From a virus (Duplodnaviria; Caudoviricetes), in IMG/VR virus record IMGVR_UViG_3300024284_000007, positions 1-64,000 of that record: a stretch of 64,000 nucleotides of DNA; one strand, 5' to 3'. A program made the translations under genes and the position numbers. Shown in pieces: positions 18,882 through 30,546 of the stretch. Each line of letters starts with the position of its first letter. The stretch's first letter is position 1. The notes beneath the pieces were generated by a model. That model ran no database searches. It was given only the letters and a program-made list of their open reading frames with translations, and was not told the origin of the DNA.

Positions 18882-18953
18882 GGGGGCGATGCCAACGGTA
18901 CGGTCGCCGGATTCCAACCCCGAGCTGTGAGGGTTCAACTCCTTCCGCCCCTG
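18882..18953 (+). tRNA. tRNA-Trp(CCA), imperfect anticodon stem
   Basis: GGGGGCG/CGCCCCT acceptor, G73, loop TTCCAAC, T-loop TTCAACT. Confidence 0.65.
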
Positions 18954-19389: not shown

Positions 19390-19459
19390 GCCCCTGTCGT
19401 TCAAGACAGGATATCTCTGGCAAAGGAGAAGATGGGGGTACCGAATCCTCCCAGGGGCT
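19390..19459 (+). tRNA. tRNA-like gene with a Thr(GGT)-type body but an irregular anticodon loop (TGGCAAA); identity uncertain
   Basis: GCCCCTG/CAGGGGC acceptor, U73, TCTCT/GGAGA stem, 8-nt T-loop TACCGAAT. Confidence 0.55.
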
Positions 19460-19490: not shown

Positions 19491-19561
19491 CTCCGGATCG
19501 TCTAAGCGAGGATGCCGCCCTGATAAGGCGGAGATGGCGGTACCGAATCCGTCGCCGGGGG
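19491..19561 (+). tRNA. tRNA-Ile(GAT), atypical 8-nt T-loop
   Basis: CCGCC-CTGATAA-GGCGG; T-loop TACCGAAT. Confidence 0.6.
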
Positions 19562-19566
19562 CTGAT

Positions 19567-19639
19567 GGGGCTATAGCTCAGCTGGAAGAGCACCTCCATG
19601 GCATGGAGGGGGTCCGGGGTTCGAGTCCCCGTCGCTCCA
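19567..19639 (+). tRNA. tRNA-Ala(GGC)
   Basis: Canonical host-like cloverleaf, G3:U70. Confidence 0.95.
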
Positions 19640-19779
19640 CGAAGGGGTGATGAGAATGAAGCGGAAGTCTTTCAACAGGCTCATGATGGGTGTCATGCTT
19701 GCTTTCATGCTTGGCGTGATACTGCTCTGGGCATTCTTTCCCCCGTGGCGTGTTCGCTGACAAGGGAAGTGAATGAAAG

Positions 19780-19917
19780 ATGATGATAGGGCATGTCTAC
19801 ATCAATGTCGTCTATGTCTGGGAAGCCTTTGCCATCGTGGCTGGGATACCTGCGGGGGTACTCCTCTACGCCATCAGGCGCAAGCGCCGGAAGCAGATCG
19901 GCGATTTATCATGGTGA
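19780..19917 (+). CDS. Single-TM microprotein with in-frame TTA two codons before the stop
   Basis: MMIGHVYINVVYVWEAFAIVAGIPAGVLLYAIRRKRRKQIGD-L(TTA)-SW*. Confidence 0.55.
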   Translation: MMIGHVYINVVYVWEAFAIVAGIPAGVLLYAIRRKRRKQIGDLSW

Positions 19918-20065
19918 CGTTCGTCATCATCGCAGCATTGAGTATCGCATTCATCCTCGTCATGTGGGGGATCGGGCGCAACCGAGACCGAGGAAGACGG
20001 TAATCCGCAGGTTCATCGAATGGATGAAGCTTTCTAAGCGGGACTACCGAGCCCGTGTTAAACTC

Positions 20066-20137
20066 CGGCTTATCGCGTAAGGGTGAGCGCGCCTGTCTCG
20101 GGGACAGGCAGACCAAGTTCGAGTCTTGGTAAGCCGA
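20066..20137 (+). tRNA. tRNA-Pro(CGG)
   Basis: C1-G72, A73, CCTGT-CTCGGGG-ACAGG. Confidence 0.85.
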
Positions 20138-20140
20138 CGA

Positions 20141-20211
20141 GAAGAGAGATGGGGGTTCGAATCCTCCCCTGCCTCATTGAGGCAGGTAGCTTAAGCGGCA
20201 GAGCGCTCTTC
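20141..20211 (+). tRNA. Circularly permuted tRNA gene (3' half precedes 5' half); identity unclear
   Basis: GAAGAG-AGAT-GGGGG TTCGAAT CCTCC-CCTGCCTC-att-GAGGCAGG-TA-GCTT AAGCGGCA GAGC-G-CTCTTC; all four stems pair. Confidence 0.75.
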
Positions 20212-20217
20212 GGTAAT

Positions 20218-20288
20218 CCGGATGTAGTGAAATGGCATCACGCCGTGCCTGGGACGCGGTAGCGGAGGTCCGATTCCTCCCATCTGGA
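20218..20288 (+). tRNA. tRNA-Pro(TGG)
   Basis: CCGGATG/CATCTGG, CCGTG-CCTGGGA-CGCGG. Confidence 0.8.
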
Positions 20289-20450
20289 CGAGGGTTTGCT
20301 GGACGGCATGACCCTACTATGATGCGCATGAAATGATCGGTGCCCGGGAAGAGGACAAGGCCGAACCCGTGCACAGGCTGCGGATGCTGCGCCGTCCCGG
20401 CAGTCCATCTTGAGGAACAGTGATCCCGTATTCGCGTACGGGATCACCTA

Positions 20451-20524
20451 GGTCACTTAGCTCAGCTGGCAAGAGCGCCCGGTTGAAGCCCGGGAGGTCT
20501 TCTGTTCGATTCAGAAAGTGATCA
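20451..20524 (+). tRNA. tRNA-Phe(GAA)
   Basis: Canonical cloverleaf. Confidence 0.92.
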
Positions 20525-20543
20525 CGGCACTATCCCTCTTCAT

Positions 20544-20615
20544 GCGGGTATGGTCTAATGGCTATGACCTCAGCCTTCCAAGCTGATGGTGCGAGTTCGA
20601 TTCTCGCTACCCGTT
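20544..20615 (+). tRNA. tRNA-Gly(TCC)
   Basis: Canonical, U73. Confidence 0.92.
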
Positions 20616-20768
20616 CGCAGTAAGAAAGGATTGCCGTGAAATTCTCACGATGCAAGACTTGCAAGAGGCTGATATCCCGGAAAACCGCCCAGCGCTATTC
20701 CGGGATATGCGGTAAATGCTTCAGGAAAAGTATCTCTTCTCTCGCGAGAAAAATGATTGGTTGACTAT

Positions 20769-20840
20769 CAGGCTGTAGTTCAGCGGGAAGAACGTCGGCT
20801 CGGGGAGCCGGAGGTCGCAGGTTCGAGCCCTGCCAGCTTG
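20769..20840 (+). tRNA. tRNA-Pro-type gene with a 6-nt anticodon loop (TCGGGA)
   Basis: CAGGCTG/CAGCTTG, A73, TCGGC/GCCGG stem. Confidence 0.65.
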
Positions 20841-21023
20841 ACGTGAGAACATGCGTGCACTGCAAGCGCAGCCGCTTCCGGCGGCTGATGGTCCGGTCTA
20901 GCCTGTCCGGGAGCAAGTGGCGCTGCAGGAACGTGCAGGCTTGCGCCAGGTACATAACAAGGAAAAAATAGCAATCCGAGGAGATCATCATGCGAAAGCG
21001 GAACCAGCCCCGAAAGCCTTAAT

Positions 21024-21095
21024 GCTCCGGTAGCTCAGTGGCAGAGCGGCTGGCTCTTAACCAGCGCGTCGCGAGTCCGATTCTCGCTCGGAGTA
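21024..21095 (+). tRNA. tRNA-Lys(CTT)
   Basis: GCTGG-CTCTTAA-CCAGC. Confidence 0.92.
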
Positions 21096-21207
21096 CGAAG
21101 GAAGAATGATGGCTGTATGCCCTAACTGCGGCGGTACCAAGAAACCCGGCAAGACCTGCCCGAGATGCGGAGCAAATCATGAGTAAACCGGACCTGCTTA
21201 AAGGCAG

Positions 21208-21279
21208 GCTCCCCTAGCATAGTGGCCATGCGTTCGACTTTTAATCGAAAAGAGCGGGGTTCGATTCCCCGGGGGAGTA
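21208..21279 (+). tRNA. tRNA-Lys(TTT)
   Basis: TTCGA-CTTTTAA-TCGAA. Confidence 0.9.
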
Positions 21280-21436
21280 CAGTAAGCGAATGCCGGAAAT
21301 AATGTGCCCGAAATGCAAGGGAACGAAGAGATACCGGGGACGCCCGTGCAAGAAGTGCTCGCCGAAGGATAAGGACGGGAAGATCACCGGTCTCCCGCTC
21401 GGAAAGATCTGGGTAGACATGGGCAGCGGAAGCTAA

Positions 21437-21511
21437 GGGCGTCTACGCCAACAGGCAGCAGCGGCTAGCTTCAAAAGCTAGTGGTTCAGGGTTCGAATCC
21501 CTGGTCGCCTA
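21437..21511 (+). tRNA. tRNA-Leu(CAA), short variable region
   Basis: CTAGC-TTCAAAA-GCTAG, A73. Confidence 0.8.
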
Positions 21512-21524
21512 CGGAAGTAAATGA

Positions 21525-21597
21525 TCTCGGGTGGGATGCGGGCATCCCAGCATGGCTCTGAACCATGCCCCCGTTGGTTCGAATCCAGCCCCGAGAG
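21525..21597 (+). tRNA. tRNA-Gln(CTG)
   Basis: U1-A72, G73, CATGG-CTCTGAA-CCATG. Confidence 0.88.
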
Positions 21598-21631
21598 CGA
21601 TCCCAGCTTGCCGGAAGCTAGCTGGGCTCAT

Positions 21632-21700
21632 GCCTGTCGCGTCGGCACGCATCTGTCCCTCGTAGCGACAGATCACCCGGATCGTCCCCGGGGACGGGCT
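21632..21700 (+). tRNA. tRNA-Thr(CGT) with non-canonical cloverleaf
   Basis: GCCTGTC/GACGGGC, U73; GCGT-CGGC-ACGC; ATCTGTCC-CTCGTAG-CGACAGAT; CCCGG-ATCGTCC-CCGGG. Confidence 0.75.
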
Positions 21701-21711
21701 CGGAAGGGAGA

Positions 21712-21993
21712 ATGATGGATACACGCGAACTGATCCTGAAGACCGTGGAGGACCTGGCTGAGGACTTCCTCGGGATAGACCGCCTGGAAGACGCCGAGCT
21801 GCCTCCTGGGGCGACCGAGCGGGCGGTCCTGGACTGGGAGACCAGCATCGGGGAGATTGCTCTCCGGTTTGAGCAGAAGCTCCGCGAGCTGATCCCCGTA
21901 CCCGTCGATGAGCCTGGTGCCCACGTCGGGCAGGCTGGTCATGTCGTCCGCGCGAAGAGGATCCATGCCCAGGTGGAGCAGATGCAGGGATAG
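21712..21993 (+). CDS. Hypothetical protein
   Basis: GGAG RBS; fills the gap between tRNAs. Confidence 0.6.
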   Translation: MMDTRELILKTVEDLAEDFLGIDRLEDAELPPGATERAVLDWETSIGEIALRFEQKLRELIPVPVDEPGAHVGQAGHVVRAKRIHAQVEQMQG

Positions 21994-22000
21994 GTTTCAT

Positions 22001-22074
22001 GCCCAGGTAGCCCAACGGCAGGAGGCACCACCTTGAGGAGGTGGGCAGTACGAGTTCGAATCTCGTTCTGGGTA
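22001..22074 (+). tRNA. tRNA-Leu(GAG), short variable region
   Basis: CCACC-TTGAGGA-GGTGG, A73. Confidence 0.85.
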
Positions 22075-22079
22075 CGGAA

Positions 22080-22146
22080 CGCCGGGAACGCAGCCACGGC
22101 TGGCGTGGTCGGCAGACGATCAGGGTTCGAGTCCTGATCCCGGCGG
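22080..22146 (+). ncRNA. tRNA-like element of unclear identity
   Basis: 8-bp CGCCGGGA/TCCCGGCG stem, T-arm with GTTCGAGT, no canonical anticodon arm. Confidence 0.5.
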
Positions 22147-22150
22147 GAGC

Positions 22151-22218
22151 GCCGCTACTCACGGCTGTGGCTCCGGTCTTGTACACCGGGTGAGACGGGT
22201 CGGCACCGTCTGGCGGCT
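22151..22218 (+). tRNA. tRNA-Thr(TGT), minimal D-arm, T-loop GTCGGCA
   Basis: GCCGCTA/TGGCGGC, CCGGT-CTTGTAC-ACCGG. Confidence 0.75.
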
Positions 22219-22361
22219 CGGGAGGAAGGAAGAAAGATGACGCTCATTTTCACCCTGAAATGCTGCGCTCCTCGCGGAGAGCCGTGCCGCTGCGCTAATC
22301 CGTGCCGCAGAGGACGATTCGGACGCCGCTGCAGGTGTCCCGGATGTCATTAGAGTTTCAT

Positions 22362-22433
22362 TGCGGGGTGGGGTAACGGCAGCCCGCGTGCCTTTGAAGC
22401 ACTGTAGTGCGCGTCCGAATCGCGCCCCCGCAG
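22362..22433 (+). tRNA. tRNA-Gln(TTG)
   Basis: U1-A72, G73, loop CTTTGAA. Confidence 0.85.
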
Positions 22434-22651
22434 CAGGTTGTCTCAAGTGAACGGGAAGGTACATGCCACGGCACGGAGGAAACACGCTGCGCCCTTGCAG
22501 GCGGCATCACAAGAAGATGTCGTCAGGCTCTAAAGGCAACGGCGGGGACGCCAAGATCCGCAAGGCGAAGCAGGTCGCCGGGGAGGCGGCTCACCCCAAG
22601 CCCCGGAAGAAGAACGGCAAGGAAGAGTTCGAGCCTACGTGAGCAGGTCAT

Positions 22652-22720
22652 GCCCTTCGGACCGGCGTCCACGCCTCCTTGGTATGGAGGCGTAGCCCGG
22701 ATCGTCCCCGGGGAAGGGCT
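22652..22720 (+). tRNA. tRNA-Thr(GGT) with non-canonical cloverleaf
   Basis: GCCCTTC/GAAGGGC, U73; GGAC-CGGC-GTCC; ACGCCTCC-TTGGTAT-GGAGGCGT; CCCGG-ATCGTCC-CCGGG. Confidence 0.8.
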
Positions 22721-22804
22721 CAAGAGATGCCGGTCATCCATCTCCTTACCGCGAGTCACCAGGTAGCCAGTCCTGTTCAGGCGTCCAGCGGGTATGATGA
22801 CCAT

Positions 22805-22877
22805 GTGACCGTGGTGTCAGCGGTTAGCATCTGACCTTGCCAAGGTCAGGGGGCGAGTTCGAGTCTCGTCGGTCACT
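22805..22877 (+). tRNA. tRNA-Gly(GCC)
   Basis: TGACC-TTGCCAA-GGTCA. Confidence 0.9.
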
Positions 22878-23002
22878 CTAGCTAGTAGCCCAGCATGAAG
22901 CTTATGGCGACATGCCCCTGAGGGGAAGCGCGGACTGCTAGCCTAGGCGGGACAACACCGGGCGTCGGCGCACCCACAAAGCCGTCCGCTGGTGTCCCTC
23001 AT

Positions 23003-23073
23003 GCGGCTATGGTGTAGAGGTAACATGCGATCTTCCCAAGCTCGTGTCGCGGGTCCGATTCCCGCTAGCCGCT
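23003..23073 (+). tRNA. tRNA-Gly(CCC)
   Basis: Loop TTCCCAA, U73. Confidence 0.88.
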
Positions 23074-23222
23074 CGGAGATGTGCACGATCTCCCGGGAAA
23101 GCTCAGCGCAATACCAGGCAGTCGATTGCGGCAGCCCACTCGCCTGTGAGCGTGCTGAAGTGAAAAGGAATGGGAGCTGTCGTCGCTATTCCCGGAAGCG
23201 GAAGTCAGGGATTTCCCGTCAT

Positions 23223-23307
23223 GCGCGGGTGGTGTAACGGTAGCCACGCACGGCTCAGACCCGTGTGGTCCGGAAGGATCGTGAGGGTTCAACTCCCTCC
23301 TCGCGTA
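23223..23307 (+). tRNA. tRNA-Leu(CAG), long variable arm
   Basis: CACGG-CTCAGAC-CCGTG. Confidence 0.9.
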
Positions 23308-23308
23308 C

Positions 23309-23704
23309 GTGGATAACGTCAAGCAGGTCATCGTCATCAGGAGAGACCTGAAAATGCGCAGGGGCAAGGAGATTGCCCAGGGTGCTCACGCTTCGATCGC
23401 CTGGCTGACTAACAGGATCACGAATTCTTCCAATGCTCTCATGTCGGTTACGCCAGCGGATTTCTCTGCAGCGGAATGGGAATGGCTTCGGGGGAATTTC
23501 CGCAAGATCTGCTGCGTTGTCAGTTCCGAGCAGGAGCTGCTCGACCTGTGTGATGCAGCGAAGGAAGCGGATCTGATCTATGAGCTGATCGAGGACTCTG
23601 GACTGACTGAGTTCAGCGGGGTTCCCACGTTCACCGCAGCGGCATTCGGTCCTGACTTCGATGAGAACCTGGATCCCATTACGGGTCATCTGGTACTCTA
23701 CTGA
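23309..23704 (+). CDS. pth2: Peptidyl-tRNA hydrolase, Pth2 family
   Basis: KQVIVIRRDLKMRRGKEIAQGAHAS...KIC.VV...L...I.DSGLTEF..PT.TA.AFGP...D.ITGHL.LY. Confidence 0.92.
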   Translation: MDNVKQVIVIRRDLKMRRGKEIAQGAHASIAWLTNRITNSSNALMSVTPADFSAAEWEWLRGNFRKICCVVSSEQELLDLCDAAKEADLIYELIEDSGLTEFSGVPTFTAAAFGPDFDENLDPITGHLVLY

Positions 23705-23793
23705 CATGCTCCAAGAAGAAGTCGGCAGGGCGTCGCTGGCGTGACCCTGCTAGTCCGGGCGGATAATAAGTCCTGGGGTAGAGCGCCAGCAAT

Positions 23794-23877
23794 GGAGAGT
23801 GAACGAGCCAGGGTGCTCGGCCTTCCTGCTAAGAAGTGCGCGGGTGATACCGTGGATTTCGAGTATCCCGCTCTCCT
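23794..23877 (+). tRNA. tRNA-Ser(GCT)
   Basis: GGAGAGT/GCTCTCC, loop CTGCTAA, long variable arm. Confidence 0.75.
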
Positions 23878-23878
23878 C

Positions 23879-24223
23879 ATGGCTAAGGAACTCGCGTTCT
23901 CGGTAACCCGCAAGGACCTGAAGATCGAGACTTTTTCTGCGGGCGGACCGGGAGGACAGCATCAGAACACCTCCAACACGGCGGTGCGCATCACGCACCT
24001 CGCGTCAGGGGCGTCAGGAGTGGCGAGAGACTCCCGCAGCCAGCATCAGAACATGAAGAACGCCCTGCGCCGCATGGCGGAATCGGGTAAGTTCAGGGTG
24101 TGGGTGAACCGGCAGCTGCTGGGGAATACCGAGCCGCCGGAGATTGCTGTACAGCGGCAGATGCACCCCTCGAACCTGCTGATCATGGGCAGGGAGGAGG
24201 GGAGATGGAAGATCATCGACTAG
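23879..24223 (+). CDS. Class I release-factor GGQ-domain protein (ArfB/PrfH-like, domain 3 only)
   Basis: IETFSAGGPGGQHQNTSNTAVRITHLASG...DSRSQHQN. Confidence 0.88.
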   Translation: MAKELAFSVTRKDLKIETFSAGGPGGQHQNTSNTAVRITHLASGASGVARDSRSQHQNMKNALRRMAESGKFRVWVNRQLLGNTEPPEIAVQRQMHPSNLLIMGREEGRWKIID

Positions 24224-24232
24224 GAAGAGACG

Positions 24233-24659
24233 ATGAAGAGATTCATGAAAGCAGGACCTCATCCTGCCGTGGGGATCCCGGTCATGACCCTCTGCGGGAT
24301 CGGGGGGATCCTGGAGCTGAGCGACAAGGGTCATTTCACCTTGTTCGGCAAGGTCATCCAGTCGCATGACGCCGCTGTCTTCGCGGTCATCGCCAGCGCC
24401 GGGTACCTTCTGCTGGAGCTGGTCTTGCTAGCCAGGAGGCACTGACATGGGGTGGCTTGCCTTCCTGGTCGTAAGCTCTGTCGCGGTCTTCGCGCTGATG
24501 AAATACGCGGGCAGCAATCGCAGGGCGGCGAAAGTGATCAAGGGGAAAGGGCGCTCATCTCCCCGGATCTGCCCTGACTGTCGCGAGCCGGCGGGCAAAT
24601 GCCAGTACCTGCGCCGTCAGGCTGAGCACCCTGGGGGCATGCTCGGGAAGAAGAAGTAA
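24233..24659 (+). CDS. Two small membrane proteins (24233..24445, 24447..24659)
   Basis: Hydrophobic segments; RBS present. Confidence 0.55.
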
Positions 24660-24664
24660 CTCAC

Positions 24665-24751
24665 GGAGAGTTCGCCTAGAGGCTTAGGGCGCTGCCTTGG
24701 AAAGGCAGTAAGGTGAAATATCCTTCACGAGTTCGAATCTCGTACTCTCCT
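24665..24751 (+). tRNA. tRNA-Ser(GGA)
   Basis: CTGCC-TTGGAAA-GGCAG, long variable arm. Confidence 0.88.
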
Positions 24752-24790
24752 CCGGGGATTAAGCCAGTCAGGGAGCTGGCATCCCCTTCT

Positions 24791-24872
24791 CGGGAGCATG
24801 CTACCGGCGTAGCGCTCCGCCTCGAAAGCGGATACGGGGTAACACCCGGGGGATCGACACCTCTGCTCTCGG
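24791..24872 (+). tRNA. tRNA-Ser(CGA), reduced D-arm, T-loop ATCGACA
   Basis: TCCGC-CTCGAAA-GCGGA, variable arm, G73. Confidence 0.72.
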
Positions 24873-24893
24873 CGCAGAATAGAAAGAAGGAAC

Positions 24894-25136
24894 ATGCCCG
24901 ACAGGAAGAAATGCCCGGCCTGCGGAACGATGATGCACCGGTTCATGAACCCTGAGCGGTATGTCTGCCCTAAAGAGAACACTCACGCAGCTCTTCTCGC
25001 CGAGAAGAGAAGGGCTGAAGGGCGTTCCCGGGGCGGAAAAGCCGCTCAGGCTAAGCGAGCTGCGTCTGGTCGCCAGCGGGAATGGGCGCGGATACTCGGG
25101 AAGAGATTCGGGGGGAAGAACAAGAAGAGCAAGTAA
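24894..25136 (+). CDS. Small basic Zn-ribbon protein
   Basis: CPACG...YVCP; RBS AAGGA. Confidence 0.55.
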   Translation: MPDRKKCPACGTMMHRFMNPERYVCPKENTHAALLAEKRRAEGRSRGGKAAQAKRAASGRQREWARILGKRFGGKNKKSK

Positions 25137-25142
25137 CATCAT

Positions 25143-25216
25143 GGGCATCAGTTCACCTGGTCGGTGGACTCACGCTGATAACGTGATCGCGCAGGGTTCG
25201 ATTCCCTGGGTGCCTA
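25143..25216 (+). tRNA. tRNA-Ile(GAT)
   Basis: TCACG-CTGATAA-CGTGA. Confidence 0.85.
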
Positions 25217-25217
25217 C

Positions 25218-25290
25218 GCCGCAGTAGCCTAACGGTCAGGGCAACTGTCTTATGAACAGCAGATTCCAGGTTCAAGTCCTGGCTGCGGTA
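25218..25290 (+). tRNA. tRNA with UAU anticodon (nominal Ile) on a Leu-like body
   Basis: Loop CTTATGA (G37), GCCGCAG/CTGCGGT, A73, D-region GCCTAACGGTCAGGGC. Confidence 0.75.
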
Positions 25291-25415
25291 CGGGAGGTAT
25301 CATGCTGACAGGAAGCTGGAATCCTCACGACGAGGATGACGAGAATCTCGTGCTGGATGTCGAGTGGGTCTTCATTCGCGGAGGAAAGTACGTTTACTCG
25401 GTGAGAGCCGAGAAT

Positions 25416-25489
25416 GCCCCTGTAGCTTAAAGGACAAAGCGGCTGGCTTCTATCCGGTCCAGATCCGGGTTCGAATCCTGGCAGGGGTG
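25416..25489 (+). tRNA. tRNA-Arg(TCT)
   Basis: Loop CTTCTAT, canonical arms. Confidence 0.85.
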
Positions 25490-25490
25490 C

Positions 25491-25562
25491 GCTCCATTGG
25501 GGAAACGGTATCCCGCCAGCCCCTCAAGCTGGAGATCCCCGGGTCGGCACCGGGATGGAGCA
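25491..25562 (+). tRNA. tRNA-Glu(CTC), T-loop GTCGGCA
   Basis: CCAGC-CCCTCAA-GCTGG. Confidence 0.75.
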
Positions 25563-25724
25563 CGGAGAAAAGATGAGAGAAAGAATGTCCAGCCAGTGTA
25601 CCGCTGCCCCAAAGGCGGTCTTCATCACTGGAAGCGCACTATCACGATTACCGCGATCCTGCGCCTGCGCATCTTCCACGCGCGGTGCACGAAATGCGGC
25701 GGGTATCCTCAGAAGAGGTAACAT

Positions 25725-25796
25725 GCTCTCATCGTCTATGGGATAGGATCTGATCCTTTCAAGATCGGGAACGGAGTTCGAGTCTCCGTGGGAGCA
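25725..25796 (+). tRNA. tRNA-Glu(TTC)
   Basis: TGATC-CTTTCAA-GATCG. Confidence 0.88.
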
Positions 25797-25811
25797 CGGG
25801 AAGGGAAGAAG

Positions 25812-26012
25812 ATGCCGCTCAGCGAGGATGAGCAGGATGCCATGGCAGCCAACTGCCCCTGGTGCTGGGCGGGGATGGGTGAGCGCTGCAAGAGCCGCAG
25901 CGGGAAAGAGCGCCTGCACCCGCATAAACGGCGGATCGCGCGCGCGCGGCGGCGCGGAGGTCTCGGCGGGGTGGGCAGGATGCTGCTGGCGGCGAGAAGG
26001 GGAAGCAAGTGA
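25812..26012 (+). CDS. Small phage zinc-finger protein
   Basis: CPWCWAGMGERC.....H..R. Confidence 0.6.
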   Translation: MPLSEDEQDAMAANCPWCWAGMGERCKSRSGKERLHPHKRRIARARRRGGLGGVGRMLLAARRGSK

Positions 26013-26028
26013 GTAACGGGAAATTCTA

Positions 26029-26065
26029 GCCTGCATGGTGAACTGGCTATCACATCATGTGATAA
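26029..26065 (+). pseudogene. Orphan tRNA 5' half
   Basis: GCCTGCA-TG-GTGA ACTGGCTA TCAC-A-TCATG..., no T-arm or 3' acceptor strand. Confidence 0.45.
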
Positions 26066-26074
26066 ACTAGTCGT

Positions 26075-26147
26075 GGCGACTAAGCTCACTGGTGTGAGCG
26101 GCACCCTCATAAAGTGCACGAGGTGGGTCCGATTCCCGCAGTCGCTA
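26075..26147 (+). tRNA. tRNA-Met/Ile2(CAT), elongator type
   Basis: GCACC-CTCATAA-AGTGC. Confidence 0.85.
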
Positions 26148-26148
26148 C

Positions 26149-26580
26149 GTGGGGAAACCGTATGATCCTGAATATTACCGAAAGTGGCAAGAGGAACGCC
26201 GCATTAAGTTCCTGGCGATAGCTAAAGAACGCCTTGGAGGATGCTGTGTTCGTTGTGGTACTACCGAAAATCTTCAGTTCGATCATATTATTCCAGGTTC
26301 CAGGATTCGTGCGATATCATCAGCAACTAATTGGTCGCTAGCTCGCTTTCTTGCCGAAGTGGACAAATGTCAGCTTCTTTGCGATGCGCATCATCGTGAA
26401 AAATCAAAGGAATGCGGAGAGCAAGGCGGAGGCTGGAATCGTATCGATAACCCAGAACACGGAACAGAGATTTGCTATACACGTGGGTGTCGTTGCGAAC
26501 CATGTCGTCAAGCCCGGCACGACGTGCGGGTAAGACGAGGTGAACTCAATGGCACGCGAGGACATTACAAAAAATCTTGA
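26149..26580 (+). CDS. HNH endonuclease (tRNA-array paralog 1)
   Basis: LGGCCVRCG...LQFDHI.P...EVDKCQLLC..HH; low GC. Confidence 0.88.
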   Translation: MGKPYDPEYYRKWQEERRIKFLAIAKERLGGCCVRCGTTENLQFDHIIPGSRIRAISSATNWSLARFLAEVDKCQLLCDAHHREKSKECGEQGGGWNRIDNPEHGTEICYTRGCRCEPCRQARHDVRVRRGELNGTRGHYKKS

Positions 26581-26606
26581 CATCTCCTCTTCGGAGGAGG
26601 TAAGGT
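26577..26606 (+). promoter_or_regulatory. sigma70-type promoter
   Basis: TTGACA-18-TAAGGT just upstream of tRNA-fMet. Confidence 0.75.
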
Positions 26607-26617
26607 AGATCTACCGA

Positions 26618-26691
26618 CGCGGAGTAGAGCAGCTTGGCAGCTCGGTGGGCTCATAACCCTCAGGTCGCGGGTTCGAATCCCGTCTCCGCTA
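26618..26691 (+). tRNA. Initiator tRNA-fMet(CAT)
   Basis: C1:U72 mismatch, GGG/CCC anticodon-stem pairs. Confidence 0.92.
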
Positions 26692-26721
26692 CCGGTCCCG
26701 ACAGGACCCTAAAGAGTCTAT

Positions 26722-26794
26722 TGGCCTCTAGCTTAACTGGCAGAGTCGCTCCCTGTTAAGGAGTTAGGTCCCGGTTCGAATCCGGGGGGGTCAG
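26722..26794 (+). tRNA. tRNA-Asn(GTT)
   Basis: U1-A72, G73, GCTCC-CTGTTAA-GGAGT. Confidence 0.88.
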
Positions 26795-26919
26795 CGGGAT
26801 GCAGGTGCACGCGATAAACTGGCTTACCTGCGCCTGGCAGATCAGCGCCCTACCCAGGGGGTGCCTCAGACGGAGACAGCGGGTCACGTACGTCCCAGTC
26901 CCCGCCGAGCTGATCACGT

Positions 26920-26975
26920 GGTTCTGTAGCTTAGCTGGTCTAAAGCACCGCCCTGTCAAGGCGGAGGTCAACGGG
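26920..26975 (+). pseudogene. Truncated tRNA-Asp(GTC): T-arm and 3' acceptor strand lost, directly upstream of an HNH gene
   Basis: Intact D-arm and CCGCC-CTGTCAA-GGCGG, then sequence diverges. Confidence 0.75.
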
Positions 26976-26991
26976 CTGATAAGATGACCGG

Positions 26992-27408
26992 GTGCCTTAC
27001 AGGGATCCTGATCGCCAGCGCGAGTATCAACGTCAGTGGGTAGCTAGTCGGCGTGCTGCATGGTTCAAGGATAAATCTTGCGTGATATGCGGGAGTGCCG
27101 AAGATTTGGAACTGGATCATCTTGATCCGGGCAAGAAAGTAAGCCATCGCATCTGGTCATGGTCAGCAACGCGACGCGAAGCTGAACTGCTTAAATGCAG
27201 GGTTCTTTGCGGTAGTCACCATAAAGAAAAATCTGCACTGGAGCATGCAAAAGGTATCGCGAACGGGACGGCGAAGCTAACTGAAGAGCAAGTCCGAGAA
27301 ATTCGTTCTTCAGGAATGGGTCACCGACCCGCCGCTAGGGTGTATGATGTAAATGAAAAAACCATCCGGTTGATCCGGAAGGGTAAAATCTGGGGTTCCG
27401 TGGTGTAA
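26992..27408 (+). CDS. HNH endonuclease (paralog 2) with C-terminal HTH-like tail
   Basis: CVICGS...LELDHLDP...ELLKCRVLC..HH, AKLTEEQVREIR; last codons overlap tRNA-Asp. Confidence 0.88.
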   Translation: MPYRDPDRQREYQRQWVASRRAAWFKDKSCVICGSAEDLELDHLDPGKKVSHRIWSWSATRREAELLKCRVLCGSHHKEKSALEHAKGIANGTAKLTEEQVREIRSSGMGHRPAARVYDVNEKTIRLIRKGKIWGSVV

Positions 27409-27466
27409 AGGTTAGCACACTACCCTGTCAAGGTAGAGGTGGGGGTTCGACTTCCCCTCGGTTCCG
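27394..27466 (+). tRNA. tRNA-Asp(GTC)
   Basis: CTACC-CTGTCAA-GGTAG; two U:U mismatches in the acceptor stem. Confidence 0.8.
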
Positions 27467-27568
27467 CTGGAGGCGTTCATGTGACGCTCATGTGGTACGA
27501 GATGCCGGAGACTGGCATCCTTCCCCGGGGGGTATCCTGGAGGGAGCTGGCGGATCACTGGCTGACCC

Positions 27569-27953
27569 ATGATCCGCTTCCGGAAAGAAGAGATGATGAT
27601 AAGCATGTGCGGGTCGAGTGTCCCGCTGTGGGAATTCCTGGCAGGGATACTGTGCGGACTGGTACTCTCGGTAACCCTGATACGCCTGTTCAAGCTGTAC
27701 GGGCTCCTGATCTGCCTGCTTATCATCATCGCGGGAGCTATCATTGTTAAGACAGCATTCATCAGGTACGGATGCTGACATGTCATTCGACGGGCAGGAC
27801 TATCCCTGGCTCCACCTGTGGATGCTGTCAGCAGTGCCGCTGGTGACATTCGCGGCAGGGGCGCTGTCCTGTAAGATCCTGGGGAAGTGGACCTGGCTGC
27901 TCATCGGGCTGGGAGTCCTGCTGCTGGTCATCCTGCGGGCAGCTGGAGGGTAG
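27569..27953 (+). CDS. Two small two-TM proteins (about 27569..27778 and 27780..27953)
   Basis: Strongly hydrophobic ORFs; starts uncertain. Confidence 0.55.
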
Positions 27954-28067
27954 ATGGCGATAAACAGGAAGTGCCTGGCATGCAGGTGGAACAGCCGCCT
28001 GCTGCGCTGCAGCTGCACCTACCGGTGCTCTGCGCTATGGTGCAAGGGCAGGGGAGTGAAAATATAG

Positions 28068-28140
28068 GGACGCTTAGCTCAGCGGTATGAGCGCTGCCCT
28101 GACACGGCAGAGGGCGGCGGTTCGATCCCGTCAGCGTTCA
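28068..28140 (+). tRNA. tRNA-Val(GAC)
   Basis: CTGCC-CTGACAC-GGCAG. Confidence 0.92.
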
Positions 28141-28143
28141 CTC

Positions 28144-28377
28144 GGCTGGAAGAAAAGGCTGCTAGCGAGCCGGATCTTCCCGCGCCGGGGATAGAGACCC
28201 GGCTCCGGCGGCAGACGTGCCGTGCGTTCCATGAGCACATGGGCAGCTGGACCAAGGGGATGAATGGTTCGACCGGGCTGCAAGACCGCATGCGGAACAG
28301 CCCGGGACCAGGGCTCGGTACCCTGCATCTCCACTGCCGGGGGTTAAGCGGCGCAAGCCTCAAACCCCCGGCGTCCA
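28144..28377 (+). ncRNA. Unassigned highly structured RNA between tRNA-Val and tRNA-Arg
   Basis: Nested perfect stems (CCGGGCTG/CAGCCCGG, GCCGGGGGTT/AACCCCCGGC, GCCGGA/TCCGGC, GGGGATG/CATCTCC) and a GCAA tetraloop. Confidence 0.55.
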
Positions 28378-28449
28378 GCCCCCATGGTGAAAGGGATATC
28401 ATGGGAGATTACGAATCTCCCGGTGCCTGTTCGAGTCAGGCTGGGGGTG
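28378..28449 (+). tRNA. tRNA-Arg(ACG)
   Basis: GGAGA-TTACGAA-TCTCC. Confidence 0.88.
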
Positions 28450-28463
28450 CGGAAAGGAAGAGA

Positions 28464-28670
28464 ATGAAGGCACTGAAGCCGCGTCCGGCAAAACGCGGGT
28501 ACGTCATCATCGGGGGACTGTCAGTACTGGCGGTGTGGGCATGCACGCAGGCTCTCCACGTCACTCCGCTGGTAGCCCTGGTCATCGTCGTCGCGGGCAT
28601 AATCCTGCTCGCGGGAGCATTCTCCCTGCGTTCCCGGGGAATTAACCGGGAGGTGAAACGCAGGAGATAA
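28464..28670 (+). CDS. Small two-TM protein
   Basis: MKALKPRPAKRGYVIIGGLSVLAVW...; RBS AAGGAAG. Confidence 0.55.
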   Translation: MKALKPRPAKRGYVIIGGLSVLAVWACTQALHVTPLVALVIVVAGIILLAGAFSLRSRGINREVKRRR

Positions 28671-28741
28671 GGGCGGCTCGTCCAATGGGAGGGCCTCTGC
28701 GTTACGAGCAGAAGACAAGGGTTCGATTCCTTTGCCGCCTA
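28671..28741 (+). tRNA. tRNA-Val(TAC)
   Basis: TCTGC-GTTACGA-GCAGA. Confidence 0.85.
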
Positions 28742-28742
28742 C

Positions 28743-28896
28743 GGGAATGAGAGAGGGTACGGCAGGGCTACTCAGGGAGTCCGGGTGCGTGCCATCCAGA
28801 GGAGTCCGAAGACGGCAGGACGGTTCCTGAGTCTGTCCTGCTTGCTTGACGGATCGCTCTCACCGAGCCCAGGGTCGTGGGCAGCTCTCATTCTCC
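28743..28896 (+). ncRNA. Unassigned structured RNA between tRNA-Val and tRNA-His
   Basis: Closing stem GAATGAGAG/CTCTCATTC and inner ACTCAGGGA/TTCCTGAGT, GTCC/GGAC, GGGTG/CATCC. Confidence 0.5.
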
Positions 28897-28898
28897 AT

Positions 28899-28973
28899 GG
28901 CGGATATAGCTCAATGGCAGAGCGCTGGCTTGTGGTGCCGGTAATCCGAGTTCAATCCTCGGTATTCGCCCCA
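28899..28973 (+). tRNA. tRNA-His(GTG)
   Basis: G-1:C73, loop TTGTGGT, encoded CCA. Confidence 0.92.
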
Positions 28974-29221
28974 CGCGATCATCCGGAAAGGGTATCATGA
29001 AGATATTCAGGCGCAGGAAGAAGCGCAGTCAGGTGAAATGCTTCATCTGCCATACTCGTACGCCCCCAGAGGGCGCAGCTGTCTGCGCGCACTGCCTGAA
29101 GCACAATATCAGGATGAGGAGTACGCAATGAGAAGTTATTATCCGGGTCAGCATAGCTGTCACTGACCCTGCCGGATCTTGCACTGGGATGCTTTGTGGT
29201 AAGGTATGATATAGTAAAACT

Positions 29222-29818
29222 ATGAACTATACCGCAGAGCAGATGCGAGAGTACCAGAACCGGAGGCGTGAAGCTCTTCGCGCCGAATTGCGCCTGTTGC
29301 TCGGCGGGAAATGTGCTCGTTGTGGCAAGACTGAGGATCTTGAATTTGATCATATAGATCCAAAAACAAAACTTTTCTCGATAGCAAATGGACTGGATAA
29401 GCCGCGTGCTGTTCTTTTGCAAGAAGTGGAAAAATGCCAGCTTCTTTGCACGCCTCACCATATCGAGAAAAACTCCGAAGATGGAACACGTGTCCGAGGA
29501 GAACGACAGTGGAAAGCAAAGCTCACTGTTGCCGATGTCCAGAGTATCAGGGCATCAACTCTTCATTATCGCGAACTGATGAAAATTTATGATATTACCA
29601 AGGCTCATGTATTCGCTATTCGCAGACGTGCGGCTTGGAAGCATGTAGACTTATCCTTGCCAGGGTACTCAAGCGGCCAACGAGATCTGACTGTAAATCA
29701 GATGGCATCGTCCTTCCTAGGTTCGACTCCTAGTCCTGGTACATGTATAACACAGCAAATAAATACGAATTCCCCAATAACACCGAAGTCTGGACCTATG
29801 AGATCATTGCCTATATGA
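29222..29818 (+). CDS. HNH endonuclease (paralog 3); domain ends at WKHVD, then TTA (29651-29653), and the ORF runs on through tRNA-Tyr
   Basis: LGGKCARCG...LEFDHIDP...EVEKCQLLC..HH, AKLTVADV..IR...WKHV. Confidence 0.85.
   Translation: MNYTAEQMREYQNRRREALRAELRLLLGGKCARCGKTEDLEFDHIDPKTKLFSIANGLDKPRAVLLQEVEKCQLLCTPHHIEKNSEDGTRVRGERQWKAKLTVADVQSIRASTLHYRELMKIYDITKAHVFAIRRRAAWKHVDLSLPGYSSGQRDLTVNQMASSFLGSTPSPGTCITQQINTNSPITPKSGPMRSLPI
29659..29741 (+). tRNA. tRNA-Tyr(GTA)
   Basis: TCTGA-CTGTAAA-TCAGA, variable arm. Confidence 0.92.
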
Positions 29819-29973
29819 TCACCGAAGGTAAGACTAGAGCTAGCGTCACTCTCGGATTCTATGGTGAATTGCGCGCTTCCGGAACTGGTGCAATCGTCGG
29901 GAAAGATGTTGGCGATACTGAGCAGCAGGTGATCCTCAAGCTTATCGGTACTGAGGATATCCAAAAGCTCTAA
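29743..29973 (+). CDS. Hypothetical low-GC protein
   Basis: 76-aa ORF. Confidence 0.5.
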   Translation: MYNTANKYEFPNNTEVWTYEIIAYMITEGKTRASVTLGFYGELRASGTGAIVGKDVGDTEQQVILKLIGTEDIQKL

Positions 29974-29985
29974 GGGGAACGTGCA

Positions 29986-30014
29986 GCAGGTTCGATTCCT
30001 GCATCCGGTACCCA
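29986..30014 (+). pseudogene. Orphan tRNA 3' half (T-arm plus acceptor strand)
   Basis: GCAGG TTCGATT CCTGC-ATCCGGT-A-CCCA with no D or anticodon arm upstream. Confidence 0.6.
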
Positions 30015-30299
30015 TTCGCCGATTAAGGACCGACATGAAGACCATTGCCATTCTCCCTTCCGAATGCCATACGATGATGCTCGGCATGCGGCTGTGCGTG
30101 GTATGCTGCCATGCATGCCGGAGGGGATTCCGGTGCGACTGCTGCAGGAGGATGAGAGAAGATGCTTAACGAGCTAGCCGCGACAGGGCATTCCGCCGGG
30201 TTCACTATCGGCGCGATAGTGCTCGGGGCGATCTGCGTCATCATCATCGTGGTGCTGCTGGTCATGACCCGCAAGCGGCGCGGGAAGAAATAAAGTAAT

Positions 30300-30369
30300 G
30301 CCCCCGGTAGCGGATTCTTCCACTGGGTTTCCGAAATCCGGATGCCGTGTTCGACTCACGGCGGGGGTG
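30300..30369 (+). tRNA. tRNA-Arg(CCG), degenerate D-arm
   Basis: GCCCCCG/CGGGGGT, loop TTCCGAA. Confidence 0.7.
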
Positions 30370-30375
30370 CTATGT

Positions 30376-30450
30376 GACGCTGTGGCGAAGATGGCATAAC
30401 GTGCACGTCTGCAAAACGTGTATTCGCGGGTTCGAGTCCCGCCAGCGTCT
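30376..30450 (+). tRNA. tRNA-Cys(GCA)
   Basis: CACGT-CTGCAAA-ACGTG, U73. Confidence 0.92.
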
Positions 30451-30471
30451 CTGATTTCCGGTCTGTTTCAA

Positions 30472-30546
30472 GCCCGAGTATCCCGCCTGTTTCCTAAACA
30501 GAGTCAGGGTAATGGACTGATGGGAGTTCGAGTCTCCTCTCGGGTA
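30472..30546 (+). tRNA. D-armless tRNA with CCT anticodon (nominal Arg) and a large variable-position hairpin
   Basis: GCCCGAG/CTCGGGT, A73; CTGT-TTCCTAA-ACAG; canonical T-arm. Confidence 0.6.

What the first reader, a model, noticed from the sequence alone, without database searches (positions are those of the whole stretch)
30472..30546. D-armless tRNA with a D-loop-like hairpin in the variable position
Seen: a 7-bp acceptor (GCCCGAG/CTCGGGT, A73) and canonical T-arm, but only 7 unpaired nt (TATCCCG) where the D-arm should be. The anticodon arm CTGT-TTCCTAA-ACAG (CCU) is followed by a hairpin AGTC-AGGGTAATG-GACT whose loop resembles a D-loop (GG dinucleotide). It would supply the otherwise missing Arg(CCU). 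Established: D-armless tRNAs are typical of animal mitochondria, not bacteria. Inference: an arm-rearranged tRNA in which the relocated GG may still contact the T-loop.
Basis: partly seen in the sequence, partly recalled or inferred. Interest (0 to 1): 0.7.

Follow-up and report, generated by a model that had tools for sequence, protein, structure and literature searches.

The report
Rewired phage arginine tRNA (CCU)
This 75-base phage gene is very probably a working arginine tRNA for the AGG codon whose D-arm parts are strung in a different order from the textbook cloverleaf. It belongs to a large, mostly unannotated family of phage Arg and Ile tRNAs that gene finders miss.

Summary
The element at 30472-30546 (+) is real. 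It is the last gene of a 35+ tRNA array in an uncultured phage (87-kb IMG/VR record) and the record's only gene with a CCU anticodon. ARAGORN misses it and Rfam's tRNA model scores it 28.1 bits (threshold 29).

It is not truly D-armless. U10-C13 pairs with GGGU (30507-30510) after the anticodon hairpin, so the two D-stem strands enclose the anticodon arm. The D-loop elements (A14, R15, G18-G19, A20) follow as a single connector that also serves as the variable loop.

Evidence: nine orthologues in related phage contigs, and at least 124 distinct relatives in IMG/VR and in cultured Streptomyces, Vibrio and Rhodococcus phages. When position 13 was forced to be non-C and its partner left free, the partner was complementary in 27 of 27 hits. 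All relatives carry Arg or Ile anticodons. The base after GG is A in 37/37 Arg and U in 86/87 Ile.

AGG sits at conserved Arg positions in the phage's reductase, so AGG keeps its standard meaning.

Expression and charging are untested. Earlier agents of this scan reported the same family on other DNA; I found no paper describing it.

The parts
30472..30478 (+). Acceptor stem, 5' strand (GCCCGAG). Pairs with 30539-30545.
   Evidence: Family alignment: 98.9% of cells paired, and all 7 pairs show changes on both sides. Among close orthologues it is 100% paired.
30479..30480 (+). U8-A9, invariant.
   Evidence: Invariant in the 12 close relatives. Also kept in divergent members that the search patterns did not force.
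30481..30484 (+). D-stem 5' strand, U10 C11 C12 C13.
   Evidence: Pairs with GGGU at 30507-30510. Position 13 covaries with its partner in 27/27 hits of a search that left the partner free. Pairs 11, 12 and 13 in the family.
30485..30486 (+). G14 C15, the short joint between the D-stem strand and the anticodon stem.
   Evidence: GC in this CCU subfamily and CU in most of the family. May pair with G32 U33 (C-G, G.U), but the evidence is weak.
30487..30501 (+). Anticodon hairpin: 4-bp stem CUGU/ACAG and 7-nt loop UUCCUAA. The anticodon CCU is at 30493-30495.
   Evidence: Stem 97.9-98.6% paired, with compensatory changes in 3-4 of 4 pairs. U33, A37 and the CCU anticodon are kept in all 9 orthologues.
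30502..30506 (+). Five-nt return strand AGUCA between the anticodon stem and the D-stem 3' strand.
   Evidence: Position 31 varies freely. The rest of the family has NNGAAA here.
30507..30510 (+). D-stem 3' strand, GGGU (equivalent to positions 22-25).
   Evidence: Pair 13-22': CG 60, GC 13, UA 9, AU 4. Pair 11-24': CG 83, AU 5, UA 2.
30511..30521 (+). Connector AAUGGACUGAU, a fused D-loop and variable loop. A14' is at 30511, A15' at 30512, G18'G19' at 30514-30515, A20' at 30516 and U48' at 30521.
   Evidence: The base after GGGUA covaries with the last connector base: A-U 88 and G-C 30 of 124; AU 67 and GC 19 of 90. The base after GG is A in 37/37 Arg members and U in 86/87 Ile members.
30522..30538 (+). 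T arm: GGGAG, UUCGAGU, CUCCU.
   Evidence: 98.2-100% paired, with compensatory changes.
30539..30546 (+). Acceptor 3' strand CUCGGGU and discriminator A73. No CCA is encoded.
19491..30546 (+). The tRNA array that ends with this gene: 34 ARAGORN calls plus extra Rfam hits.

Best explanation
The gene encodes an elongator tRNA-Arg(CCU) that reads AGG during phage infection, built on a rewired core.

Proposed fold. The acceptor and T arms are standard (7/5). After U8-A9, the D-stem 5' strand (UCCC) runs straight into the anticodon hairpin. The chain then returns through a 5-nt strand to the D-stem 3' strand (GGGU). D-stem and anticodon stem therefore form one continuous arm of about 9-11 layers, about as long as the usual D-stem/26/anticodon-stem stack. 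The D-loop elements come afterwards, in one connector that also replaces the variable loop: A14', A15' (paired with U48'), G18'G19' (for the T-loop) and A20'.

Inferred, not shown:
- The connector closes the elbow as in an ordinary L-shape.
- The host ArgRS charges the tRNA through A20', C35, U36 and A73.
- RNase P, the CCA-adding enzyme, EF-Tu and the ribosome accept it through the normal acceptor/T domain.

Why only Arg and Ile tRNAs use this design is unknown.
For: 1. Conservation. Nine CCU orthologues lie at the same place in related phage contigs, after tRNA-Cys and before a lineage-specific membrane-protein gene.

2. Substitution. Relatives carry an ordinary or a reduced-D-arm tRNA(CCU) at exactly this site, with homologous flanks. 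Rewired UCU and UAU genes likewise replace ordinary ones at their own array sites.

3. Structure. Acceptor, anticodon and T stems are 98-100% paired, with many compensatory changes. The D-stem pairing around the anticodon arm is supported as follows:
- 27/27 complementary partners when position 13 was forced non-C and its partner left free;
- pair 11-24' is CG 83, AU 5, UA 2, and pair 13-22' is CG 60, GC 13, UA 9, AU 4.

4. Tertiary signature. There is A-U/G-C covariation between the base after GGGUA and the last connector base, 118 of 124.

5. Identity. All 124 relatives carry Arg or Ile anticodons. The base after GG is A in 37/37 Arg and U in 86/87 Ile. The discriminator is A in 87/87 Ile. 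Ordinary Arg and Ile tRNAs of the same array show the same GGA versus GGT pattern.

6. Demand and meaning.
- AGG is about 23% of Arg codons in the window's long ORFs.
- AGG codons lie at conserved Arg positions of the class II ribonucleotide reductase (residues 62, 204, 294, 295) when aligned with PDB 1l1l.

7. Feasibility. E. coli HisRS, EF-Tu and the ribosome accept a synthetic D-arm-less tRNA (PMC11551756).
Against: - No expression, processing or aminoacylation data.
- Standard finders reject the gene.
- The anticodon stem has only 4 pairs and U10.U25' is a mismatch.
- In this gene and its eight orthologues CCC and GGG never vary, so the D-stem pairing rests on the wider family.
- This CCU subfamily departs from the family consensus: GC instead of CU at 14-15, and NGUCA instead of NNGAAA.
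- Part of the family sample was collected with patterns that fixed several bases, which inflates apparent conservation.
- The 3D arrangement was not modelled.
- Host unknown; no cultured close relative of this phage.
Confidence: 0.7

Rival explanations
1. One reading: a truly D-armless tRNA with a 7-nt unpaired linker and an extra D-loop-like hairpin (AGUC/GACU) in the variable position, whose loop GG contacts the T-loop.
For: GUC can pair with GAC or GAU in all nine CCU orthologues, and the 3' strand follows an indel in the loop. With the 5' linker forced unpaired, the window sequence folds to -24.6 kcal/mol, against an MFE of -24.9. That fold, however, uses a different 5-bp hairpin (GUCAG/CUGAU) plus extra pairs in the anticodon loop.
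Against: - Only 60.9% of cells pair, even on an alignment fitted to this hairpin.
- The fourth pair holds in 4 of the 8 CCU orthologues in hand.
- The hairpin cannot form in the UCU and UAU paralogues or in the wider family, which has NNGAAA there.
- The 'loop' GGG covaries with the 'linker' CCC.
- RNAalifold does not predict it.
Confidence: 0.06
2. A tRNA-shaped RNA whose main role is not decoding. For example, a decoy or replacement that escapes or soaks up a host tRNA-targeting defence nuclease, the odd core being selected because the nuclease recognises the normal D-arm region.
For: Phage tRNAs are known to counter tRNA-cleaving defences (PMC10264068 and PMC11555353, listed). The design is restricted to two isotypes and is patchy among close relatives, as expected in an arms race. 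This role would not exclude decoding.
Against: Identity elements specific to ArgRS and IleRS, the anticodon-loop consensus and standard acceptor/T arms are all kept. That fits a charged, decoding tRNA. No defence system aimed at Arg and Ile tRNAs was tied to these phages here.
Confidence: 0.15
3. A decaying pseudogene left after a rearrangement in the tRNA array.
For: Sub-threshold Rfam score and no ARAGORN call. Neighbouring Arg tRNAs also have degenerate D arms.
Against: Compensatory substitutions in every helix, an invariant anticodon loop, and the same design in at least 124 distinct sequences from phages of unrelated hosts.
Confidence: 0.03
4. A recoding tRNA that inserts something other than arginine at AGG.
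For: The unusual core could change synthetase recognition.
Against: AGG, AGA and AUA codons lie at conserved Arg, Arg and Ile positions of the phage reductase. A20', C35 and U36 fit ArgRS. There is no paired long variable arm.
Confidence: 0.03

Closest known systems
Canonical bacterial and phage tRNA-Arg(CCU) (E. coli argW type; Rfam RF00005). Examples here: the ordinary cloverleaf genes at the same array site in L071 (9694-9767) and L074 (858-934).
   Same: Anticodon and anticodon-loop consensus; 7/5 acceptor/T domain; U8, A14, R15-Y48, G18-G19 and A20 all present; same position in the array.
   Different: Order along the chain. The D-stem strands enclose the anticodon hairpin. The D-loop follows the D-stem 3' strand and is fused with the variable loop. 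The anticodon stem has 4 bp. The score falls below Rfam's threshold.
Animal mitochondrial D-armless tRNAs (bovine and human mt tRNA-Ser(AGY), nematode mt tRNA-Ser; PMC7609411, PMC9427863).
   Same: No hairpin between the acceptor and anticodon stems. A three-way rather than four-way junction on paper.
   Different: The mitochondrial tRNAs have lost the D-stem and G18-G19 and are flexible or Y-shaped. Here the D-stem pairing, G18-G19, position 20 and a Levitt-type pair are all kept, and the T-loop is canonical.
Synthetic 'mini HisT', a D-arm-less tRNA used by evolved E. coli (Edelmann et al. 2024, PMC11551756).
   Same: Shows that bacterial synthetase, EF-Tu and ribosome can use a tRNA without a standard D arm.
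   Different: It is man-made, truly lacks the D arm, is unstable and needed a pnp mutation. The phage family is natural and keeps the D-arm parts in a new order.
Permuted tRNA genes of Cyanidioschyzon merolae (PMC3728597).
   Same: Parts of a tRNA occur in a non-standard order in the gene.
   Different: There the whole gene is circularly permuted and processing restores a normal cloverleaf. Here the 5' and 3' acceptor strands are in the normal order and the mature RNA itself would be rewired.
allo-tRNAs with 8/4 or 9/3 acceptor/T geometry (Mukai et al., PMC5389517).
   Same: Non-canonical tRNAs found in metagenomes and phages.
   Different: allo-tRNAs keep the cloverleaf order, have long variable arms and are Ser-type. 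This gene is 7/5, with no paired variable arm and Arg-type elements.

Membership tests
Canonical tRNA (Rfam RF00005) | Score at or above the gathering threshold (29 bits) | tested here: not met
   28.1 bits in a local search. Not listed at the gathering threshold nor in the 12-kb E-value search.
Canonical tRNA (Rfam RF00005) | 7-bp acceptor stem and 5-bp T stem with a 7-nt T loop | tested here: met
Canonical tRNA (Rfam RF00005) | D hairpin (positions 10-25) between the acceptor and anticodon arms | tested here: not met
   Only 8 nt lie there. The Rfam alignment deletes the D arm.
Canonical tRNA (Rfam RF00005) | Anticodon arm with a 7-nt loop, U33 and purine 37 | tested here: met
   UUCCUAA. 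The stem has 4 bp instead of 5.
Mitochondrial-type D-armless tRNA | No D-stem pairing; the short connector is unpaired | tested here: not met
   C11-C13 pair with GGG after the anticodon hairpin. Covariation.
Mitochondrial-type D-armless tRNA | Loss of the G18-G19/T-loop elements | tested here: not met
   GG is kept in the connector (a GG with an isotype-specific base after it in all 124). The T loop is UUCGAGU.
Rewired phage Arg/Ile tRNA family (defined here and in earlier notes of this scan) | G7-UA, a D 5' strand, 2 nt, a 4-bp anticodon hairpin, a 5-6 nt return strand, a D 3' strand, then A-R...GG-N...Y, then the T arm | tested here: met
   The covariance model R2 gives the window gene 91.6 bits and ordinary tRNAs 33 bits or less. 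Note that R2 was built partly from this gene. The window gene departs at 14-15 (GC) and in the return strand (AGUCA).
Rewired phage Arg/Ile tRNA family | Anticodon for Arg or Ile, with the matching base after GG (A for Arg, U for Ile) | tested here: met
   CCU with GGA.
Rewired phage Arg/Ile tRNA family | Expressed, processed and aminoacylated | not testable with these tools
Class II tRNA (long paired variable arm) | Conserved helix between the anticodon and T arms | tested here: not met
   60.9% paired; absent in the paralogues.
allo-tRNA | 8/4 or 9/3 acceptor/T geometry | tested here: not met
   The geometry is 7/5.

The most novel reading that the evidence does not exclude
Phages of unrelated hosts (Streptomyces, Rhodococcus, Vibrio, crAss-like and many uncultured ones) use a natural tRNA architecture that is not the cloverleaf. 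The D-stem strands enclose the anticodon arm, and a fused D/variable connector rebuilds the elbow. This design serves only arginine and isoleucine tRNAs and works with the host's cytosolic translation machinery. It would be the first natural non-cloverleaf tRNA class outside mitochondria. Its isotype restriction hints at a specific selective cause, such as escape from a host factor that reads the D-arm side of Arg and Ile tRNAs.
Probability: 0.6. Interest if true: 0.85.

Novelty: new variant of a known kind. Interest (0 to 1): 0.75.

Why it matters
The literature I could read states that all known bacterial tRNAs are cloverleaves and that natural arm-less tRNAs occur only in mitochondria (PMC11551756; review PMC7609411).

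A conserved, covarying and isotype-consistent family with a different chain order would have several consequences:
- It would show that the L-shape can be built from another topology in ordinary bacterial translation.
- It would expose a blind spot of tRNA finders. These genes are unannotated, or mis-annotated as tRNA-Phe or as a hypothetical protein, in GenBank phage records. Phage tRNA counts and codon-usage studies are therefore off.
- It would offer ready-made scaffolds for orthogonal tRNA engineering.
- It raises a concrete question: why only Arg and Ile?

Tried and rejected
- Exact 32-mer search in IMG/VR: nothing.
- BLAST of the region and of two proteins against cultured phages: no close relative of this phage.
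- The CCU-subfamily pattern in 185,579 prokaryote genomes gave only two chance hits without tRNA shape. The same pattern in metagenomes gave three true and two chance hits.
- The dGTP diphosphohydrolase gene was a poor anchor. Three context look-ups landed in unrelated phages. The neighbouring membrane-protein gene worked.
- Thermodynamic folding cannot decide the core. Several alternative hairpins lie within 1-3 kcal/mol.
- Register UAUCC/GGGUA, which is the MFE and RNAalifold prediction, was rejected. Position 13 covaries with the first G, and L052 fits only the other register.
- Pairs 14-33 and 15-32 look compensatory among the 12 close relatives. In the wider family 32 varies freely against a constant U15, so only 14-33 may be real.
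- ARAGORN in mitochondrial mode or with lowered thresholds finds none of the 12.
- No terminator-like or convincing promoter-like site lies next to the gene.

Full report
**Context.** The window is the first 64 kb of an 87,379-b IMG/VR virus record that CheckV rates about 71% complete. Positions 19.5-30.5 kb hold a tRNA array: 34 ARAGORN calls plus extra Rfam hits. The flanking genes are typical of phages. They include a class II ribonucleotide reductase, an HNH endonuclease, dCMP deaminase, a dATP/dGTP diphosphohydrolase, an endolysin and tail-fibre genes. No cultured phage is close.

**The observation.** At 30472-30546 (+), 20 nt after tRNA-Cys, the sequence reads GCCCGAG UA UCCC GC CUGU UUCCUAA ACAG AGUCA GGGU AAUGGACUGAU GGGAG UUCGAGU CUCCU CUCGGGU A.
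- Rfam's tRNA model aligns it end to end at 28.1 bits, just under the 29-bit threshold. It deletes the D arm and inserts 16 nt after the anticodon arm.
- ARAGORN misses it in all modes.
- No other gene of the whole record has a CCU anticodon.

**It is a conserved gene.** A pattern search and a covariance model (R1) found eight further CCU orthologues in related phage contigs from viromes, metagenomes and Logan/ENA assemblies. They are L004, L005, L008, L009, L048/L049, L073 and L075.
- All lie at the same place: after ...His, Tyr, Arg(CCG), Cys, and before a lineage-specific membrane-protein gene, dCMP deaminase, the diphosphohydrolase gene and the endolysin gene.
- Acceptor, anticodon and T stems are 100%, 97.9% and 100% paired, with compensatory changes in 5, 3 and 3 pairs.
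- Other relatives have something else at this exact site. Some have an ordinary cloverleaf tRNA(CCU) (L071, L074). Others have a 70-nt form with a degenerate D arm (L002, L050, L052, L068).
- The flanks of the L068 gene are homologous to the window's flanks. So the odd gene stands in for a normal tRNA-Arg(CCU).

**Paralogues and the wider family.** The same core turned up with anticodons UCU (L052, L073) and UAU (L008, L073). These sit exactly where the window and other relatives have ordinary tRNA-Arg(UCU) and tRNA-Ile(UAU).
- A second model (R2) scored about 85 of these at 60-79 bits, against 33 bits or less for ordinary tRNAs.
- BLAST found members in cultured phages: Streptomyces phages Mildred21, Braelyn, Persimmon, WhereRU, Navo and Coruscant; about two dozen Vibrio phages; Rhodococcus phage Peregrin; and a crAss-like phage.
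- In those records the gene is almost always unannotated. In Mildred21 it is called tRNA-Phe(gaa), although the loop CUUCGAA reads UCG.
- In 124 distinct sequences the anticodons are UAU 79, GAU 8, UCU 17, CCU 12, ACG 4 and UCG 4. That is Ile and Arg only.

- Only a 3-bp GUC/GAY can form, and only in the CCU subfamily.
- The fourth pair holds in 4 of the 8 CCU orthologues in hand.
- The UCU and UAU paralogues and the wider family (NNGAAA there) cannot form it.
- Even an alignment fitted to it gives 60.9% pairing.
- Energy calculations do not decide between the alternatives.

What is conserved instead is UAUCCC before the anticodon hairpin and GGGUA after it. To test their pairing without bias, I scanned IMG/VR with position 13 forced to be non-C and its proposed partner left free.
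- All 27 distinct tRNA-shaped hits had a complementary partner: G-C 13, U-A 9, A-U 4, U.G 1.
- On a 90-row alignment, pair 11-24' is CG 83, AU 5, UA 2. Pair 12-23' is CG 87, GC 1, UG 1. Pair 13-22' is CG 60, GC 13, UA 9, AU 4. Position 10-25' is a conserved U.U.
- This fixes the register: position 13 pairs with the first G. It rules out the shifted UAUCC/GGGUA helix that MFE and RNAalifold proposed.

So the D-stem exists, and its two strands enclose the anticodon hairpin.

**The connector behaves as D-loop plus variable loop.** After GGGU comes an invariant A, then a purine that covaries with the last base before the T stem. The counts are A-U 88 and G-C 30 of 124, and AU 67 and GC 19 of 90. 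This is the pattern of the R15-Y48 Levitt pair.
- A GG follows 1-3 nt later.
- The next base is A in 37/37 Arg members and U in 86/87 Ile members. The ordinary Arg and Ile tRNAs of these arrays show the same pattern.
- From established knowledge, A20 is the main D-loop identity element for bacterial ArgRS.
- The discriminator is A in 87/87 Ile members.
- In the window gene these elements are A14' 30511, A15' 30512, G18'G19' 30514-30515, A20' 30516 and U48' 30521.

Inference: D-stem and anticodon stem form one continuous arm of near-normal length. U8/A14', 15'-48' and G18'G19' rebuild the corner and elbow, giving an L-shape with a different chain order. I could not model this.

**Function.** AGG makes up about 23% of Arg codons in the window's long ORFs, by a rough ORF set.
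- In the reductase, AGG codons fall on conserved Arg at residues 62, 204, 294 and 295. AGA falls on conserved R447 and AUA on conserved I240, when aligned with PDB 1l1l. The codons therefore keep their standard meaning.
- Together with the ArgRS-type elements, the best reading is a charged, AGG-decoding tRNA-Arg.
- A synthetic D-arm-less tRNA is accepted by E. coli HisRS, EF-Tu and ribosomes (PMC11551756). That makes use of a rewired tRNA by host machinery plausible.
- Expression and charging remain untested.

**Novelty.** Literature searches found no description of such tRNAs. One 2024 paper states that natural arm-less tRNAs occur only in mitochondria.

Earlier notes of this scan report the same family on other DNA, with essentially the same reading. 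One note prefers a pseudoknot wording, and one says that part of a related claim fell on checking. I read those notes after finding the family and proposing the D-stem idea, but before the decisive test. My test supports the nested D-stem pairing. This finding is therefore a further member of the family, a slightly divergent CCU subfamily in a soil-type phage lineage.

Noticed in passing
window 30300-30370; also L002 7637-7706 and 8005-8075, L004 959-1027, L050, L052 8214-8283, L068 about 1838-1907: The neighbouring tRNA-Arg(CCG), and in relatives the tRNA-Arg(CCU), have a degenerate D region (NNCGGAYYYYYCNC, at most a 2-3 bp stem, but GGA kept) and are only about 70 nt long. This is a second kind of non-standard Arg tRNA in the same lineage. 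ARAGORN calls only some of them.
   Followed up: partly
window 18882-18953 (+): My own acceptor/T-arm scan found a 72-nt tRNA-shaped sequence just upstream of the array. It has a 7-bp acceptor, a good T arm and a possible CCA (Trp) anticodon loop (AUUCCAA). Neither ARAGORN nor Rfam reported it.
   Followed up: no
window 26075-26147, 26920-26990, 19390-19459 (+): Rfam tRNA hits that ARAGORN does not call: 43.8 bits above threshold, and 26.5 and 26.4 bits just below. They may be further atypical tRNAs of the array.
   Followed up: no
L194 1195-1270 (Streptomyces phage Mildred21, MF155946.1 91367-91442): The record annotates this as tRNA-Phe(gaa). The sequence is a rewired-family member with loop CUUCGAA, that is anticodon UCG (Arg), and a compensated D-stem pair G13-C22'. 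An HNH endonuclease gene ends 2 nt upstream.
   Followed up: partly
window 29222-29818 (+): An HNH endonuclease ORF lies inside the tRNA array, and its reading frame runs over tRNA-Tyr (29659-29742). Homing endonucleases next to tRNA genes recur in relatives and may drive the patchy swapping of ordinary and rewired genes.
   Followed up: no
L073 12353-13987, 2716-3186 and 3426-3770; window 20148-20204: A related phage contig encodes a Ro60/TROVE protein, a PTH2 peptidyl-tRNA hydrolase and an RF-1-domain protein beside the array. The window has a weak YrlA (Y RNA-like) hit of 26.7 bits inside the array.
   Followed up: no
L002 6316-6400 and 7707-7779: In the closest large relative, an 85-nt stretch scores 48.9 bits on the tmRNA model. 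The tRNA-Cys homologue fits the tRNA-Sec model best (40.8 bits, long D stem). These are further odd tRNA shapes in this lineage.
   Followed up: no
L195 1494-1572 (Vibrio phage 184E37.3a): The Vibrio-phage members have about 5 extra nt after the acceptor strand and can form a long 8-bp UAUCCUAU/AUAGGGUA helix in the shifted register. Not every subfamily may use the same register.
   Followed up: no
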